DNA from: a virus
Taxonomy: Duplodnaviria > Heunggongvirae > Uroviricota > Caudoviricetes
Length of the DNA stretch: 5,696 nucleotides
Reading direction: 5' to 3' (one strand)
IMG/VR virus record: IMGVR_UViG_2706794691_000016
In this document: piece after piece, positions 1,128 to 5,696 of the stretch
How positions within the stretch are numbered: the first letter of the stretch is position 1
Layout of the letters: every line of letters begins with the position of its first letter
The notes under the pieces: model-generated
What the model was told of the DNA's origin: nothing
The model's database searches: none
What the model saw: only the letters and a program-made list of their open reading frames with translations
Translations under genes and position numbers: made by a program

Positions 1128-2024
1128 TTAGTAATCTGCGTGTTTCGCACTTTTCAGAAATGCTTTCATATTTTCATTAGGTCGCTCAATTTCGAAGTTA
1201 CTTCCATATAACTCTTGTAATTTTGGCCATAACTTACTTAATAACCCTCTCCTGCGATAAAATGGATGTATCCAAACGGTAGATAGGTACGGAGAATTTG
1301 CATTTGAATTGTTTATTGTGACCAGCCCAACTAAACATTGTCGATAACCACTATTATCCATTGATTGTATTTCTTCGACGAATGGATACGCGATTACATC
1401 AGTCCAACCATGATCGGTTGTATCCCATTGCATTCCGTCATGACATTCCTTCGACTGATAGCGGCGTAAAGCTACACACGCGAGCTTTTGCCAATCTGGA
1501 GAATTAATTGTGATCTCTTCATCGTATGACGCGCCTATTGGAGCGGGTATTGGTCTGATTAATCCAGCATGGCATTCATCATAGAACTTCATGNNNNNNN
1601 NNNNNNNNNNNNNNNNNNNNNNNNNNNNNNNNNNNNNNNNNNNNNNNNNNNNNNNNNNNNNNNNNNNNNNNNNNNNNNNNNNNNNNNNNNNNNNNNNNNN
1701 NNNNNNNNNNNNNNNNNNNNNNNNTCTTAAGAGTTTAATTAAGTTAATACAAGCTTCTTCACTAGTCTTGCCGTTGATGCGAAGTATGTTAGGACTAAAG
1801 TAATATTCATCCATATCAGGGAATGCAGCTTCGCAAAACTCCTGTACATAATTTAGCACCTGGATTCTACAGAGATCATCATAGCTGGTAATAACTAAGG
1901 GGGTATCTTCATTACTATTATGATTATCAATAATGCAATCTATAGCGAGACTTACTGCTTTGCGTATCACTTCAGTTGAATCTAACGACTCTAAAAATTT
2001 TGTCTTTCGTGTGCGAATATCCAT
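1128..2024 (-). CDS. Hypothetical protein P3 (298 aa) with a GNAT-acetyltransferase-like C-terminal region and an unrecognised N-terminal region
   Basis: Single open frame on both sides of the 1594-1724 mask. ATG at 2024-2022 with an AGGT SD-like element 4 nt upstream, starting 15 nt after the P2 stop. C-terminus ...VWIHPFYRRRGLLSKLW...NENMKAFLKSAKH resembles GNAT motif A and the C-terminal N..A..FY.K motif by eye only. Two ECH-G motifs (DECHAG, KECHDG) about 43 residues apart. Confidence 0.7.
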   Translation of the reverse strand: MDIRTRKTKFLESLDSTEVIRKAVSLAIDCIIDNHNSNEDTPLVITSYDDLCRIQVLNYVQEFCEAAFPDMDEYYFSPNILRINGKTSEEACINLIKLLRXXXXXXXXXXXXXXXXXXXXXXXXXXXXXXXXXXXXXXXXXXXXMKFYDECHAGLIRPIPAPIGASYDEEITINSPDWQKLACVALRRYQSKECHDGMQWDTTDHGWTDVIAYPFVEEIQSMDNSGYRQCLVGLVTINNSNANSPYLSTVWIHPFYRRRGLLSKLWPKLQELYGSNFEIERPNENMKAFLKSAKHADY

Positions 2025-2039
2025 GTATGACCTGCGCTA

Positions 2040-2602
2040 TTAAAATTCATGAATGAACGGTTTGTCATCTGGTTGCAAAATGGTGGTTTTATTCGTTGCT
2101 ACATTTAAACTGTTGTAGAGCATAATTGCCAGGTTCGATGCATTTTCAATCAGCGTTTCAAGATCCTGGTCTGTAATCACTACGAGGTTCCCTTCTTTAT
2201 CCTTTCCACCACGATGCACTAAGTGATTTCGATTGAGGGTTGCCAATTCAATAGCTTCTATCGGACAGTCTTTTTGTACTTTTATATCGAATGTAGCTTC
2301 ATAGCGGTCGATTACCTTTTTAGTGCTATGCCAGCTTGCACTGATCAAGTGTTCCTTGATTGACCTGATTAGCTCTCCCCTAATTTTCTCGATGGGTTCA
2401 CCCTTGAAAGGCAACGCAGCAATATCTTTGCTTACTTTAAATTCAGTCTTACCTTTTTCTATACAATTGGCTATGTAGACATCATCTTTCTCTATAGAAT
2501 TAATGAATAGCTCAACATAAAGCGTTTCCAAAGCTGTAATAACATTCGTGTAGAGCAAACTAAGCAAGTGGTTTTTTTGCTGTTGTTCAGTTTTATCTTT
2601 TG
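2040..2602 (-). CDS. Hypothetical protein P2, C-terminal 186 aa visible, containing a candidate HEPN-type Rx4H motif (RNHLVH, codons at 2214-2231)
   Basis: 186-codon open frame in AT-rich DNA ending at TAA 2040-2042; the N-terminus is inside the 2603-2852 mask. Motif context ...ELATLNRNHLVHRGG... fits the R-[N]-x3-H signature of HEPN RNases. The family call is a motif-level inference only. Confidence 0.65.
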
Positions 2603-2852
2603 NNNNNNNNNNNNNNNNNNNNNNNNNNNNNNNNNNNNNNNNNNNNNNNNNNNNNNNNNNNNNNNNNNNNNNNNNNNNNNNNNNNNNNNNNNNNNNNNNN
2701 NNNNNNNNNNNNNNNNNNNNNNNNNNNNNNNNNNNNNNNNNNNNNNNNNNNNNNNNNNNNNNNNNNNNNNNNNNNNNNNNNNNNNNNNNNNNNNNNNNNN
2801 NNNNNNNNNNNNNNNNNNNNNNNNNNNNNNNNNNNNNNNNNNNNNNNNNNNN

Positions 2853-3072
2853 CATAGCCACCTTCTCTACTTTCATACGGACAAGCATTTGCCGGATCTT
2901 CAAAGTTTTCAAAGAACCAGTTTTTCATTACTTCGAGTTGATCTTTTTTGCTTATGTATTTTAAAGATTTTAGTGGAACTTTCTTTCCATTAACCTCGAA
3001 AACAATTTTCACGATGTAACGCTCCCTTGTATCAATTGCGCAACTATTATACCACAGCGAAATACAGGGCAT
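2853..3072 (-). CDS. Hypothetical small protein P1 (N-terminal 73 aa visible; 3' end within or just past the 2603-2852 mask)
   Basis: ATG at 3072-3070 preceded by AAGGAGG with a 6-nt spacer. Translation MPCISLWYNSCAIDTRERYIVKIVFEVNGKKVPLKSLKYISKKDQLEVMKNWFFENFEDPANACPYESREGGY. Under a length-preserving mask it is in a different frame from P2, so it is either a separate upstream gene or there is a frameshift. The first visible in-frame stop is at 2593. Confidence 0.5.
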
Positions 3073-3110
3073 AACCTGCCTCCTTAAACTAACATACCAT
3101 GAGCCAGCAA

Positions 3111-3136
3111 TGTCCGCTATTGGCACAAAGCGGACA
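3111..3136 (-). promoter_or_regulatory. Perfect 8-bp inverted repeat TGTCCGCT-N10-AGCGGACA upstream of P1, next to a TTGACA hexamer on the coding strand; candidate operator or promoter element
   Basis: Seen in sequence in the 137-nt gap between the gene Y stop (3211) and the P1 start (3072). The function is inferred. Confidence 0.25.
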
Positions 3137-3210
3137 ACCACGCTAGCTCTCCCCTGTGCCAGAAAAATGTCAATTTACATATGAACTAATGCTCTTTGAT
3201 CTAGTAACGT

Positions 3211-3627
3211 CTATAAATACCGAAGATTTCCTTGATAAAATGCCAGTACACGTTTCATAACTTCACTCTTCCGGCACTCGCGACAGATTATGTTCTGACG
3301 CCTGTCATAGCGGCGTATTTCTCCGTCTGGTAATGACCAGATAAGGTCAGGATCAACCACAACCGTTTTTTTCACCTTTGCCCTGGATAGTTTTTTGCGG
3401 GCGTTTTTCCAATCCTTACGAGCCTGTTCAGACGGGAATAACCCATAGCCAGAGTTGTATACATCGCCACTGGCAACCAACTCTCTGGCAAGAATGCTCA
3501 TCAGATATCTTGTCGCACCTGTCTTGGCCTCCAGTTGCCTTAACGTCTCGCGCCCACTCTGGCGTACCAACTCAACAACCTGCTCCTTAATTTTTTCACG
3601 CTCTTCCTGTGTAAAAACTTTTGCCAT
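3211..3627 (-). CDS. Hypothetical prophage protein Y (138 aa) with a possible helix-turn-helix region and a basic C-terminal half
   Basis: ATG at 3627-3625 with GGAGG 5 nt upstream; stop TAG at 3213-3211. Translation MAKVFTQEEREKIKEQVVELVRQSGRETLRQLEAKTGATRYLMSILARELVASGDV... Lies immediately downstream of gene X in the replication-module operon. No family recognised. Confidence 0.65.
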   Translation of the reverse strand: MAKVFTQEEREKIKEQVVELVRQSGRETLRQLEAKTGATRYLMSILARELVASGDVYNSGYGLFPSEQARKDWKNARKKLSRAKVKKTVVVDPDLIWSLPDGEIRRYDRRQNIICRECRKSEVMKRVLAFYQGNLRYL

Positions 3628-3642
3628 AAGCGCCTCCGGCAA

Positions 3643-4203
3643 TCACTTTTCCGACACAATACGACTGGAGGAATCGACAATCTGTCGGACAATATCCCGG
3701 TGCTTGTTCAGCTCCCGCAGCGCGGCGCAGACTCGCTCCCACTTCTGGACATGATTTTTCGCCCGACGCAGTTCGCGGTTTGCCATATGCAGCGATGGTA
3801 AAACTAGGTCATCCGCTTGCGTTTCAGTAAACGATGGCAGCGACTGCACAATGTCCGCCACAGTTTCTGTTTTAATATCTTCCTGTGTTGCCGCTTCCTG
3901 TACTGGTAACGCAACACCGGCTGGCTGAGGAANNNNNNNNNNNNNNNNNNNNNNNNNNNNNNNNNNNNNNNNNNNNNNNNNNNNNNNNNNNNNNNNNNNN
4001 NNNNNNNNNNNNNNNNNNNNNNNNNNNNNNNNNNNNNNNNNNNNNNNNNNNNNNNNNNNNNNNNNNNNNNNNNNNNNNNNNNNNNNNNNNNNNNNNNNNN
4101 NNNNNNNNNNNNNNNNNNNNNNNNNNNNNNNNNNNNNNNNNNNNNNNNNNNNNNNNNNNNNNNNNNNNNNNNNNNNNNNNNNTTCCGGCAGTTCTGCCTG
4201 CAT
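3643..4203 (-). CDS. Hypothetical prophage protein X (C-terminal 96 aa visible; start at or upstream of 4203)
   Basis: Open frame ending at TGA 3645-3643, 15 nt before the gene Y start. Visible C-terminus ...LHMANRELRRAKNHVQKWERVCAALRELNKHRDIVRQIVDSSSRIVSEK. An ATG (MQAELPE) sits at 4203-4201 but the frame stays open upstream into the mask, so the true start is unknown. Confidence 0.55.
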   Translation of the reverse strand: MQAELPEXXXXXXXXXXXXXXXXXXXXXXXXXXXXXXXXXXXXXXXXXXXXXXXXXXXXXXXXXXXXXXXXXXXXXXXXXXXXXXXXXXXXPQPAGVALPVQEAATQEDIKTETVADIVQSLPSFTETQADDLVLPSLHMANRELRRAKNHVQKWERVCAALRELNKHRDIVRQIVDSSSRIVSEK

Positions 4204-4476
4204 TGGCTGTTCCTGCTGAACGTNNNNNNNNNNNNNNNNNNNNNNNNNNNNNNNNNNNNNNNNNNNNNNNNNNNNNNNNNNNNNNNNNNNNNNNNNNNNN
4301 NNNNNNNNNNNNNNNNNNNNNNNNNNNNNNNNNNNNNNNNNNNNNNNNNNNNNNNNNNNNNNNNNNNNNNNNNNNNNNNNNNNNNNNNNNNNNNNNNNNN
4401 NNNNNNNNNNNNNNNNNNNNNNNNNNNNNNNNNNNNNNNNNNNNNNNNNNNNNNNNNNNNNNNNNNNNNNNNNAAT

Positions 4477-5208
4477 TCACCCATCGNNNNNNNNNNNNNN
4501 NNNNNNNNNNNNNNNNNNNNNNNNNNNNNNNNNNNNNNNNNNNNNNNNNNNNNNNNNNNNNNNNNNNNNNNNNNNNNNNNNNNNNNNNNNNNNNNNNNNN
4601 NNNNNNNNNNNNNNNNNNNNNNNNNNNNNNNNNNNNNNNNNNNNNNNNNNNNNNNNNNNNNNNNNNNNNNNNNNNNNNNNNNNNNNNNNNNNNNNNNNNN
4701 NNNNNNNNNNNNNNNNNNNNNNNNNNNNNNNNNNNNNNNNGATAGCTGCCGCTAAGTGATTCTTCCCGGTACCAGGTTTTCCGCTGAACGCAAAATTTGT
4801 ACACCCGGTCATCAGTTCATCGGCGATGGATTTCGCCTGGCTTAACGCGTATCGCTGGCCGTCGTTCTGCACCTGGTAATTCGCAAACGAGCATTTACGG
4901 TGCAACGGCTGGATGCCTGAGCGATTCAGAATTTTTTCCACCCGCAACTGGCGATTNNNNNNNNNNNNNNNNNNNNNNNNNNNNNNNNNNNNNNNNNNNN
5001 NNNNNNNNNNNNNNNNNNNNNNNNNNNNNNNNNNNNNNNNNNNNNNNNNNNNNNNNNNNNNNNNNNNNNNNNNNNNNNNNNNNNNNNNNNNNNNNNNNNN
5101 NNNNNNNNNNNNNNNNNNNNNNNNNNNNNNNNNNNNNNNNNNNNNNNNNNNNNNNNNNNNNNNNNNNNNNNNNNNNNNNNNNNNNNNNNNNNNNNNNNNN
5201 NNNNNNNN
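4477..5208 (-). CDS. DnaC-like (IstB/AAA+) replicative helicase loader of a prophage replication module
   Basis: Visible segment 4741-4956 translates to NRQLRVEKILNRSGIQPLHRKCSFANYQVQNDGQRYALSQAKSIADELMTGCTNFAFSGKPGTGKNHLAAAI. This closely parallels E. coli DnaC as I recall it (FNRSGIRPLHQNCSFENYRV...FIFSGKPGTGKNHLAAAI), including the Walker A motif. Both ends are masked: 4477 is the first visible in-frame stop, which would make the C-terminus about 38 aa shorter than E. coli DnaC, and the start is somewhere in 4957-5208. Confidence 0.75.
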   Translation of the reverse strand, partial: XXXXXXXXXXXXXXXXXXXXXXXXXXXXXXXXXXXXXXXXXXXXXXXXXXXXXXXXXXXXXXXXXXXXXXXXXXXXXXXXXXXXNRQLRVEKILNRSGIQPLHRKCSFANYQVQNDGQRYALSQAKSIADELMTGCTNFAFSGKPGTGKNHLAAAIXXXXXXXXXXXXXXXXXXXXXXXXXXXXXXXXXXXXXXXXXXXXXXXXXXXXXXXXXXXXXXXXXXXXXXXXXXXXXXXXXXXXXDG

Positions 5209-5601
5209 CAATAGCCTCCGGCTCGAATTTTTTAGACGCTCGTTTTTGGCGAGGGGGAGATCAGTATTTAGATCTTCCTCTTCCTCTTCCTCTGGTAACG
5301 CTTTTTGATCCGTTTGTGTAACGCTGGCAGCGTTACCTTTTCGTTTCAGTTCGCGTATTTTTGTTACTCGCTCGTTTGTAACCGCCCGTTTTTTTTAGAG
5401 CTTTTTCCGTTATGACGTTCAAAGTTAGGTAGAGAAAGCCCTCCGTCATTTTCGACCAGCCATCCAACCTGAATTAACGCATCAGCAAAACCAGACATAA
5501 AAGTGATGCGATCTATTGCACTTTTTGTAACGCCGCGAGCGTTACAATCTGCATTACCGTCTATCATTTGTTGATCCGCCCATGCCCAGAAGCGAATAAC
5601 C
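5209..5601 (-). pseudogene. Lambda O-like replication initiator gene, 5'-truncated by an IS insertion and frameshifted at an A8 tract
   Basis: Frame 0 (5601-5367) reads VIRFWAWADQQMIDGNADCNARGVTKSAIDRITFMSGFADALIQVGWLVENDGGLSLPNFERHNGKSSKK and stops at 5366-5364. The -1 frame opens inside the A8 tract (plus-strand T8 at 5389-5396) and runs open into the mask as KKRAVTNERVTKIRELKRKGNAASVTQTDQKALPEEEEEEDLNTDLPLAKNERLKNSSRRLL with no start codon. The ...QGG..P...NEGKSPKTR region of lambda O, as I recall it, aligns across the shift. Sits immediately upstream of the DnaC-like gene. Confidence 0.55.
5295..5382. repeat. Iteron-like repeats inside the O-like gene (candidate prophage origin): GTAACGCT at 5295-5302, palindrome GTAACGCT-GGC-AGCGTTAC at 5318-5336, GTTAC at 5363-5367, GTAAC at 5378-5382, interspersed CGTTT(G) motifs
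   Basis: Repeats seen directly in the sequence. By analogy to lambda, where ori lies within gene O and consists of dyad-symmetric iterons next to an AT-rich tract; here the T8/A8 tract and flanking AT-rich bases are adjacent. Confidence 0.35.
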
Positions 5602-5696
5602 TGAGGTAGCCTGAGTTTAACGGACACTCCTTCCTGAAATAGAATGGCATCAGAAGGAGCTAATAATGAGCAGAAAAACCCAACGTTACTCTAAAG
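5602..5696 (+). mobile_element. Left end of an IS3-family insertion sequence (IS600-like by recollection), truncated by the window edge
   Basis: Sequence beginning TGAGGTAGCCTGAGTTTAACGGACAC (IS3-family ends start with TG), followed by a strong SD (AAGGAG, 5654-5659) and an ATG at 5666 encoding MSRKTQRYSK, which matches my memory of the IS600 OrfA N-terminus. The O-like gene is cut off at this junction. Only about 95 bp is visible and the right end is absent, so the exact boundary and identity are unconfirmed. Confidence 0.5.
5666..5696 (+). CDS. IS3-family transposase OrfA, first 10 codons only (MSRKTQRYSK), continues beyond the window
   Basis: ATG at 5666 with AAGGAG and a 6-nt spacer. N-terminal peptide consistent with IS3-family OrfA (IS600-like) from memory. 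Confidence 0.45.
   Translation, partial: MSRKTQRYSK

What the first reader, a model, noticed from the sequence alone, without database searches (positions are those of the whole stretch)
5386..5399. Frame change at an A_AAA_AAC heptamer within an A8 run: homopolymer error, decay, or -1 frameshift site
On the coding (minus) strand the frame switch maps exactly to A AAA AAC (plus-strand T8 at 5389-5396), which has the X_XXY_YYZ form of a -1 slippery site. The downstream frame has no start codon and continues the protein sensibly (GKSSKK then RAVTNERVTKIRELKRKG). The likeliest explanations are a sequencing or assembly homopolymer error or a genuine inactivating mutation; programmed frameshifting or transcriptional slippage is a less likely but testable alternative.
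Basis: seen in the sequence. Interest (0 to 1): 0.45.

Follow-up and report, generated by a model that had tools for sequence, protein, structure and literature searches.

The report
Frameshifted, IS-broken prophage replication gene
The run of eight A's is a real slippage mutation, one of three independent lesions in a dead replication-initiator gene of a decaying Shigella sonnei prophage; it is not a programmed frameshift signal, so the finding is ordinary gene decay.

Summary
T8 lies at 5389-5396 (A8 on the coding minus strand). The in-frame heptamer A_AAA_AAC lies at 5394-5388, and the -1 frame continues the protein.

The gene is a lambda-O-like/YdaU-family replication initiator (PHROG 2509) of a Rac-like prophage. 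The window is 100% identical to a contig of an assembly whose copy of this ORF is named as Shigella sonnei.

Functional orthologues read straight through in one frame with A6 (AAA AAA = Lys-Lys), not A9. This holds for E. coli prophages, the isolated phage vB_EcoS-666R9, and Mixta, Erwinia, Rahnella and Pectobacterium.

The window copy carries three lesions:
- An IS600 insertion removes the first ~35 codons (IS end at 5602-5696).
- The tract has expanded from A6 to A8 (+2).
- A 10-bp deletion between TCCCCCT direct repeats lies at ~5252-5258.

A -1 shift at the heptamer would restore only 47 authentic residues and then run into nonsense.

The A8 allele is not a sequencing error: the exact 87-aa product occurs on 492 contigs. 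Sister alleles carry A7, A8 or A9, always in broken genes, so the tract is a recurrent replication-slippage hotspot.

Verdict: pseudogene decay, low interest.

The parts
5389..5396 (-). A8 homopolymer on the coding strand (T8 on the + strand). It is expanded from the A6 (AAA AAA, Lys-Lys) of intact orthologues, a +2 frameshift.
5388..5394 (-). A_AAA_AAC heptamer in the X_XXY_YYZ register of the zero frame. It is a by-product of the tract expansion and is absent from functional alleles.
   Evidence: plus codon arithmetic from the ORF start at 5627. Orthologues read TCT AAA AAA CGG.
5209..5601 (-). Visible part of the 5'-truncated replication-initiator pseudogene (YdaU-family / lambda O-like, PHROG 2509). 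It corresponds to codon ~36 onward of the 262-aa orthologue. The rest lies under the N mask at 4957-5208.
5364..5627 (-). Chimeric 87-aa ORF, annotated in public records as 'putative bacteriophage protein [Shigella sonnei]'. Its GTG start and first 8 codons plus two bases of the ninth (MSVKLRLPQ) lie inside the IS600 terminal repeat. It ends at the stop created by the A8 frameshift.
5602..5696 (+). Left end of IS600 (IS3 family). The terminal repeat TGAGGTAGCCTGAGTTTAACGGACACTCC starts at 5602. orfA starts with ATG at 5666 (MSRKTQRYSK...) and runs off the window. The insertion removes the initiator's start codon and first ~35 codons.
5599..5601 (-). GGT on the coding strand, one copy of the 3-bp IS600 target-site duplication. 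The other copy is seen on the far side of the IS in locus L003.
5252..5258 (-). Single remaining TCCCCCT copy, the scar of a 10-bp deletion (TCCCCCTAAA) between two direct repeats. This is the second frameshift; +2 and -10 give a net -8, so the frame is not restored.
5276..5293 (-). (AGAGGA)3 tandem repeat encoding the poly-Glu linker. Copy number varies from 2 to 7 among alleles. This is a third slippage-prone site in the same linker.
5318..5336 (.). Palindrome GTAACGC-N5-GCGTTAC, a candidate initiator-binding site (iteron-like).
5527..5545 (.). Second copy of the GTAACGC-N5-GCGTTAC palindrome.
4477..4956 (-). ydaV (DnaC/IstB-like helicase loader), the gene downstream of the initiator. It is partly masked and its start lies under the 4957-5208 mask.

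Best explanation
The frame change is a genuine slipped-strand (replication-slippage) expansion of a Lys-Lys A6 tract to A8. It sits in the linker of a lambda-O-like/YdaU-family replication-initiator gene of a defective Rac-like prophage in Shigella sonnei.

The gene is dead three times over:
- IS600 inserted at codon ~35 and removed the start of the gene.
- The tract gained two A's.
- Ten bases were lost between two TCCCCCT direct repeats.

The slippery-looking heptamer is a by-product of the expansion and has no decoding role.

Shown: the three lesions, A6 in the functional alleles, and the presence of A8 in hundreds of assemblies.

Inferred: slippage as the mutational mechanism, and the order of events. 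IS600 is probably last, since A8 + 10-bp-deletion alleles without IS600 exist. The tract probably drifted under relaxed selection in the lineage carrying the 10-bp deletion, where both A8 and A9 occur.
For: (1) Nearest intact orthologues (E. coli FDAARGOS_944 and COL60J, 262 aa) differ from the window copy only by the IS600 junction, the 2 extra A's, the 10-bp deletion and one substitution.

(2) A6 is the functional state.
- 55 of 67 IMG/VR loci have A6. Adding the three reference A6 alleles (L001, L002, L011) gives 58 A6 alleles, of which 47 encode 260-264 aa.
- Every A7, A8 or A9 allele is truncated.
- All 60 listed E. coli complete-genome hits span 86 nt (A6), and none of the 162 matching genomes exceeds 97.7% identity.
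- The isolated phage vB_EcoS-666R9 has A6 and an intact 262-aa 'DNA replication protein O'.
- Mixta, Erwinia, Rahnella and Pectobacterium homologues are single ORFs with SSKKR = AAAAAA. More distant homologues have AKTR or AKNR and no run at all.

(3) IS600.
- The 5602-5696 stretch matches IS600 copies in 3057 E. coli genomes, annotated as 'IS3-like element IS600 family transposase'.
- The orfA start is confirmed.
- L003 shows a clean 3-bp GGT target duplication, with the 41-aa N-terminal fragment on the other side of the IS.

(4) A -1 shift would give 47 authentic residues and then 63 residues of nonsense. The real C-terminal domain lies in the third frame.

(5) It is not an error.
- The exact 87-aa product is on 492 contigs, named as S. 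sonnei.
- All 8 fetched loci have A8 plus the 10-bp deletion.
- The window is 100% identical to L008.

(6) The tract is a recurrent hotspot.
- A7 is the only frameshifting lesion in two different sequence backgrounds (L035, L083).
- Both A8 and A9 occur in the 10-bp-deletion background.
- S. flexneri SFBU1023 keeps A6 but carries an independent 11-bp deletion.

(7) Context: IS600 expansion and mixed IS-plus-indel pseudogenes are documented for S. sonnei (PMC7373316).
Against: No read-level data were inspected, so the reality of A8 rests on agreement among public assemblies.

The A7 alleles in IMG/VR could themselves be assembly errors.

The order of the three lesions is inferred from a handful of alleles without a phylogeny.

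RNA polymerase can slip on runs of about 8-9 A's (PMC1088944), so a small fraction of transcripts may differ in tract length. Nothing suggests this is used.
Confidence: 0.93

Rival explanations
1. Programmed -1 ribosomal frameshifting at A_AAA_AAC, or programmed transcriptional slippage on A8, joins the two frames to make a functional initiator.
For: The heptamer has the X_XXY_YYZ form in the correct register, and the -1 frame continues the orthologous protein for 47 residues. Runs of 8-9 A's can support transcriptional slippage in bacteria, and Shigella uses this in mxiE (PMC1088944).
Against: The motif is absent from every functional orthologue; these have A6 and a single ORF. The gene lacks its start codon and first ~35 codons because of IS600. 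A second frameshift 140 nt downstream puts the C-terminal domain in the third frame. There is no downstream stimulatory structure: MFE -15.3 kcal/mol, z = -0.65, and 57 of 200 shuffles fold at least as well. There is no Shine-Dalgarno-like element upstream (read from the sequence).
Confidence: 0.01
2. Sequencing or assembly homopolymer error: the true genome has an in-frame tract.
For: Homopolymers are classic error sites. Several of the long-contig assemblies fetched show other broken gene calls.
Against: The identical A8-derived 87-aa product is on 492 contigs (481 index blocks). A further 73 contigs carry the 67-aa version with the same KKNGRLQTSE tail. The difference from the functional allele is +2, not +/-1. 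All 8 fetched loci and 8 IMG/VR loci agree on A8.
Confidence: 0.02
3. The tract is a phase-variable (contingency) switch that reversibly turns the prophage initiator off and on.
For: Tract length is polymorphic among near-identical alleles (A6, A7, A8, A9). A7 arose as the sole lesion in two backgrounds.
Against: A6 is short for a contingency tract and is nearly invariant in intact genes across E. coli and other genera. The long-tract alleles (A8, A9) all carry the irreversible 10-bp deletion, and most A8 copies also carry IS600. No in-frame long-tract allele encodes a full-length protein.
Confidence: 0.03

Closest known systems
IS- and indel-driven pseudogene formation in Shigella (genome degradation; Hawkey et al. 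2020, PMC7373316)
   Same: IS600 sits inside a coding sequence, and frameshifting indels lie in the same gene. The allele is seen in hundreds of S. sonnei-labelled contigs. That paper reports that 12% of interrupted S. sonnei genes carry both an IS and another inactivating mutation.
   Different: Nothing essential differs. The gene here is prophage-borne rather than a core metabolic gene, and this specific locus was not looked up in that paper.
Lambda O / Rac YdaU type phage replication initiators with a DnaC-like or P-like loader downstream
   Same: The gene lies in the cro - cII/ydaT - initiator - ydaV(DnaC-like) order. The full-length match to PHROG 2509 'replication initiation protein' has E = 1.2e-89. 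The C-terminal 124 residues are 81% identical to Rac YdaU. Repeated palindromes lie inside the gene, as lambda's ori iterons lie inside O.
   Different: The N-terminal domain is not DUF1376 (no Pfam hit), so it is a different DNA-binding module from Rac YdaU. The window copy is a non-functional remnant.
Programmed -1 frameshift sites (E. coli dnaX A_AAA_AAG; IS3-family orfA/orfB) and programmed transcriptional slippage (T. thermophilus dnaX A9, S. flexneri mxiE T9)
   Same: An A-rich heptamer sits in the X_XXY_YYZ register within a run of 8 A's.
   Different: The site is not conserved, has no stimulatory element, and yields no functional product in the shifted frame. The gene is otherwise destroyed. 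The neighbouring IS600 has its own A7G run inside orfA about 250 nt beyond the window end. That this run is the IS3-family frameshift site is my recollection, not something tested here.

Membership tests
Programmed -1 ribosomal frameshift site | Slippery heptamer X_XXY_YYZ in the zero-frame register | tested here: met
   TCT AAA AAA AAC; A_AAA_AAC at 5394-5388.
Programmed -1 ribosomal frameshift site | The heptamer and the two-frame gene layout are conserved in orthologues | tested here: not met
   Functional orthologues have A6 and one ORF. This holds for 55 of 67 IMG/VR loci, all 60 listed of the 162 matching E. coli genomes (86-nt span), phage vB_EcoS-666R9, and Mixta, Erwinia, Rahnella and Pectobacterium.
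Programmed -1 ribosomal frameshift site | Stimulatory element: a downstream hairpin or pseudoknot 5-9 nt away, or an upstream Shine-Dalgarno-like sequence | tested here: not met
   The 80 nt downstream fold to -15.3 kcal/mol with z = -0.65. No GGAGG-like element lies 6-14 nt upstream (sequence).
Programmed -1 ribosomal frameshift site | The shifted frame yields a complete functional product | tested here: not met
   Only 47 authentic residues follow, then 63 out-of-frame residues. The N-terminus is removed by IS600.
Programmed -1 ribosomal frameshift site | Measured frameshifting efficiency above background | not testable with these tools
   This needs a reporter assay or mass spectrometry.
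Programmed transcriptional slippage site | An A/T run long enough to slip (about 9 in many bacteria) that is conserved among homologues | tested here: not met
   The run is 8 here, is A6 in functional homologues, and is variable only in broken alleles (the length criterion is from PMC1088944).
Pseudogene by slipped-strand indel in a degraded prophage | Closely related intact orthologues read through in one frame, and the difference is confined to a repeat tract | tested here: met
Pseudogene by slipped-strand indel in a degraded prophage | Additional independent disabling lesions in the same gene | tested here: met
   IS600 insertion with a GGT target duplication, and a 10-bp deletion between direct repeats.
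Pseudogene by slipped-strand indel in a degraded prophage | The allele is reproducible across independent assemblies, so it is not an artefact | tested here: met
   492 contigs carry the exact product. 8 loci from the assembly collection and 8 IMG/VR loci have A8.
YdaU-family / lambda O-like phage replication initiator | Sequence membership | tested here: met
   PHROG 2509 matches the intact orthologue at E = 1.2e-89 and the window fragment at E = 9.3e-37. RefSeq names WP_001737256.1 'phage replication initiator YdaU family protein'.
YdaU-family / lambda O-like phage replication initiator | N-terminal DUF1376 domain, as in Rac YdaU | tested here: not met
   No Pfam hit for the 262-aa orthologue, whereas Rac YdaU hits PF07120 at 2.7e-26. 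Only the C-terminal 124 residues are homologous (81% identity).
YdaU-family / lambda O-like phage replication initiator | Synteny: after cro and ydaT/cII, before a DnaC-like loader | tested here: met
IS600 (IS3 family) | Terminal repeat TGAGG..., orfA HTH_Tnp_1 plus orfB rve, 1264 bp, 3-bp target duplication | tested here: met
   Only the first 95 nt lie in the window.

The most novel reading that the evidence does not exclude
The Lys-Lys A-tract of this initiator family might act as a reversible slippage switch (phase variation) on prophage replication. A6 to A7 changes would silence the initiator in otherwise intact prophages, and the A8/A9 alleles would be its decayed end state. A related idea is that the tract lies between iteron-like palindromes, in what may be an origin embedded in the initiator gene, so that instability of the tract and linker is tied to origin function.
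Probability: 0.03. Interest if true: 0.35.

Novelty: already known. Interest (0 to 1): 0.07.

Why it matters
It matters little biologically. This is a textbook case of multi-hit decay of a cryptic-prophage gene in an IS-rich Shigella genome.

It has practical value for annotation:
- The 87-aa 'putative bacteriophage protein' carried in hundreds of S. sonnei records is a chimeric artefact. It starts inside an IS600 terminal repeat and ends at a frameshift-induced stop.
- It shows that an in-register slippery heptamer can arise purely as a by-product of homopolymer expansion in a dead gene. Frameshift-site scans should therefore check orthologue conservation and the integrity of the whole gene first.

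Tried and rejected
- A 60-nt megablast query centred on the tract found nothing. The low-complexity filter left flanks shorter than the 28-nt word size. An 88-nt query worked.
- Pfam gave no hit for the 262-aa orthologue or the 87-aa ORF. NCBIfam gave only a far sub-threshold hit to the DnaT C-terminus. PHROGs resolved the family.
- Folding the 80 nt downstream of the heptamer showed no structure better than shuffles, so no stimulator could be proposed.
- I considered that the Rac prophage context upstream of IS600 in L008 reflects a real IS-mediated rearrangement. The junction carries an N, so it may be a scaffolding join, and I did not rely on it.
- I considered that +2 and -10 might compensate each other. 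The net change is -8, and the zero frame stops 7 codons after the tract, so they do not.
It returned only 11 loci, but these included the useful S. flexneri and cross-genus orthologues.
- The deep protein searches, structure prediction and RNA-model tools were not used, because the question was settled without them.

Full report
**Observation.** The window holds a T8 run at 5389-5396, its longest homopolymer. About 0.35 runs of 8 or more are expected from base composition. On the minus strand the ORF 5627-5364 (87 aa) reads ...GGA AAA AGC TCT AAA AAA AAC GGG..., which translates as G K S S K78 K79 N80 G. A_AAA_AAC at 5394-5388 is therefore in the X_XXY_YYZ register. The zero frame stops seven codons later (KKNGRLQTSE*). 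The -1 frame opens at the tract and reads KKRAVTNERVTKIRELKRKG....

**What the gene is.** The stretch from 5601 downward is about 96-97% identical to a 789-nt gene found in 312 complete E. coli genomes. It lies between cro/ydaT and the DnaC-like ydaV. RefSeq annotates it as 'hypothetical protein' or 'phage replication initiator YdaU family protein'.
- The intact 262-aa protein matches PHROG 2509 'replication initiation protein' end to end (E = 1.2e-89). The window's 87-aa fragment matches it at 9.3e-37.
- Its C-terminal 124 residues are 81% identical to Rac YdaU. Its N-terminal domain is not DUF1376.
- An isolated phage, vB_EcoS-666R9, carries an intact copy annotated 'DNA replication protein O'.

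**Source.** The exact 87-aa product is in the public collection on 492 contigs, named 'putative bacteriophage protein [Shigella sonnei]'. The window is 100% identical over all its unmasked segments to contig CXFB01000014.1 of GCA_001248565.1 (locus L008). That contig also supplies the sequence hidden under the window's N masks. The masks are fixed-length placeholders: the 252 N's at 4957-5208 stand for 437 real bases.

**Three lesions.** Alignment with the nearest intact alleles shows that the window copy differs by one substitution plus three lesions.
1. *IS600 insertion.* Everything upstream of 5601 is replaced by the left end of IS600. The terminal repeat TGAGGTAGCC... starts at 5602, and orfA (MSRKTQRYSK) starts at 5666 on the + strand. 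In most assemblies (for example L003) the insertion is simple. The 41-aa N-terminal fragment lies on the other side of a 1264-bp IS600, and GGT is duplicated at the two ends.
2. *Tract expansion.* The tract is A8 where intact alleles have A6.
3. *10-bp deletion.* TCCCCCTAAA is lost between two TCCCCCT direct repeats (scar at 5252-5258).

The indels sum to -8, so the frame is not restored. A -1 shift at the heptamer would give 47 authentic residues followed by 63 residues of nonsense. The authentic C-terminal domain sits in the third frame.

**Is the heptamer conserved?** It is not.
- In IMG/VR, 55 of 67 loci matching the flanks have A6. Adding three reference A6 alleles gives 58, of which 47 encode 260-264 aa.
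- Eight IMG/VR loci have A8, two have A7 and two have A9. All of these are truncated.
- In 162 complete E. coli genomes matching an 88-nt probe, the best identity is 97.7%. All 60 listed hits span 86 nt, which equals A6. An A7 or A9 allele would have scored 98.9%.
- Homologues in Mixta, Erwinia, Rahnella and Pectobacterium are single ORFs with SSKKR encoded by AAAAAA. More distant homologues have AKTR or AKNR and no run.
- No stimulatory structure follows the heptamer (z = -0.65).

**Is A8 an error?** It is not. Besides the 492 contigs, all eight fetched loci have A8 with the 10-bp deletion. A 67-aa version with the same tail is on 73 more contigs.

**Mechanism and history (inferred).** The linker of this protein contains three slippage-prone sequences, and all three are polymorphic among near-identical alleles: the A tract, an (AGAGGA)n repeat, and the TCCCCCT(AAA)TCCCCCT direct repeat.
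- A7 occurs as the only frameshifting lesion in two different backgrounds (L035, L083).
- A8 and A9 occur only in the 10-bp-deletion background, with or without IS600.
- An A9 allele labelled S. sonnei carries an IS end at a different position.
- S. flexneri SFBU1023 keeps A6 but has an independent 11-bp deletion.

The simplest account is repeated replication slippage in a gene under relaxed selection in cryptic prophages. IS600 entered the A8 + 10-bp-deletion allele in the S. sonnei lineage. This fits the documented IS600 expansion and mixed IS-plus-indel pseudogenes of S. sonnei (PMC7373316). It also fits the known hypermutability of long A/T runs (PMC1088944).

**Comparison and verdict.** The site looks like a -1 frameshift heptamer, but it fails every other defining feature of programmed ribosomal frameshifting or programmed transcriptional slippage: conservation, a stimulator, and a functional product. 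It is a member of the well-known class of decayed prophage genes in Shigella. Novelty: already known. Interest: low.

Noticed in passing
window 5318-5336 and 5527-5545 (half-site at 5295-5301); L001 2862-2885, 3054-3077, 3261-3284: Three copies of a ~20-bp palindrome, TGTAACGC-N5-GCGTTACA, lie ~200 bp apart in the intact gene. One is just upstream of the initiator's start codon and two are inside the gene. GCGTTAC occurs 7 times in the window against 0.30 expected. They look like binding sites for a dimeric protein. They may be iterons of an origin embedded in the initiator gene, as in lambda O, or autoregulatory operators. The A tract lies between copies 2 and 3.
   Followed up: partly
window 5364-5627 (-): The publicly annotated 87-aa 'putative bacteriophage protein [Shigella sonnei]' is a chimeric ORF. 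Its GTG start and first 8 codons plus two bases of the ninth lie in the IS600 terminal inverted repeat, and its stop is created by the A8 frameshift. It is likely an annotation artefact propagated over hundreds of records.
   Followed up: yes
window N runs 322-571, 1594-1724, 2603-2852, 3933-4182, 4224-4473, 4487-4740, 4957-5208: The masked stretches are placeholders of roughly fixed length, not true lengths. For example, the 252 N's at 4957-5208 replace 437 bases in the identical contig L008. ORFs listed across N runs are therefore artefacts, and window coordinates are not colinear with the genome.
   Followed up: yes
window ~1128-2912 (-); L008 12811-13830 and 13849-14847: A two-gene cassette lies downstream of the DUF1627/DUF977 genes. 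The first gene encodes a 340-aa protein with a sub-threshold HEPN/RES N-terminal domain hit (E = 2.5e-4). The second encodes a 333-aa protein with a sub-threshold GNAT acetyltransferase hit at its C-terminus (E = 9e-4). Neither has a meaningful PADLOC hit. It may be a prophage-borne toxin-antitoxin or defence-type moron. It is absent from the other S. sonnei-type prophage (L003), which has QueH/Hok there.
   Followed up: partly
window 5276-5293 (-): The (AGAGGA)n repeat encoding the poly-Glu linker varies from 2 to 7 units among near-identical alleles, always in frame. The window has 3 units, like the intact E. coli alleles.
   Followed up: yes
L008 8763 (left IS600 junction) compared with L003 and L004: The sequence on the far side of the IS600 differs between assemblies. 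In L003 it is the ydaU N-terminal fragment, in L004 another transposase, and in L008 a truncated Rac ydaV preceded by an intact Rac ydaU. The L008 junction carries an N, so it may be a scaffold join rather than a real IS-mediated rearrangement.
   Followed up: partly
L003/L008 IS600, about 250 nt beyond window position 5696 (IS position 316-323): The adjacent IS600 has an A7G run (TTA AAA AAA GCA) near the end of orfA. That IS3-family elements place their genuine programmed -1 frameshift at such a site is my recollection and was not tested. If correct, a real recoding site sits next to the spurious one.
   Followed up: no
L011 (Shigella flexneri SFBU1023) 3001-3769: The S. flexneri copy of the same initiator keeps A6 and has no IS600. 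It is inactivated independently by an 11-bp deletion (GGGCGCTAACG) between short direct repeats. This is parallel decay of the same prophage gene in two Shigella lineages.
   Followed up: yes
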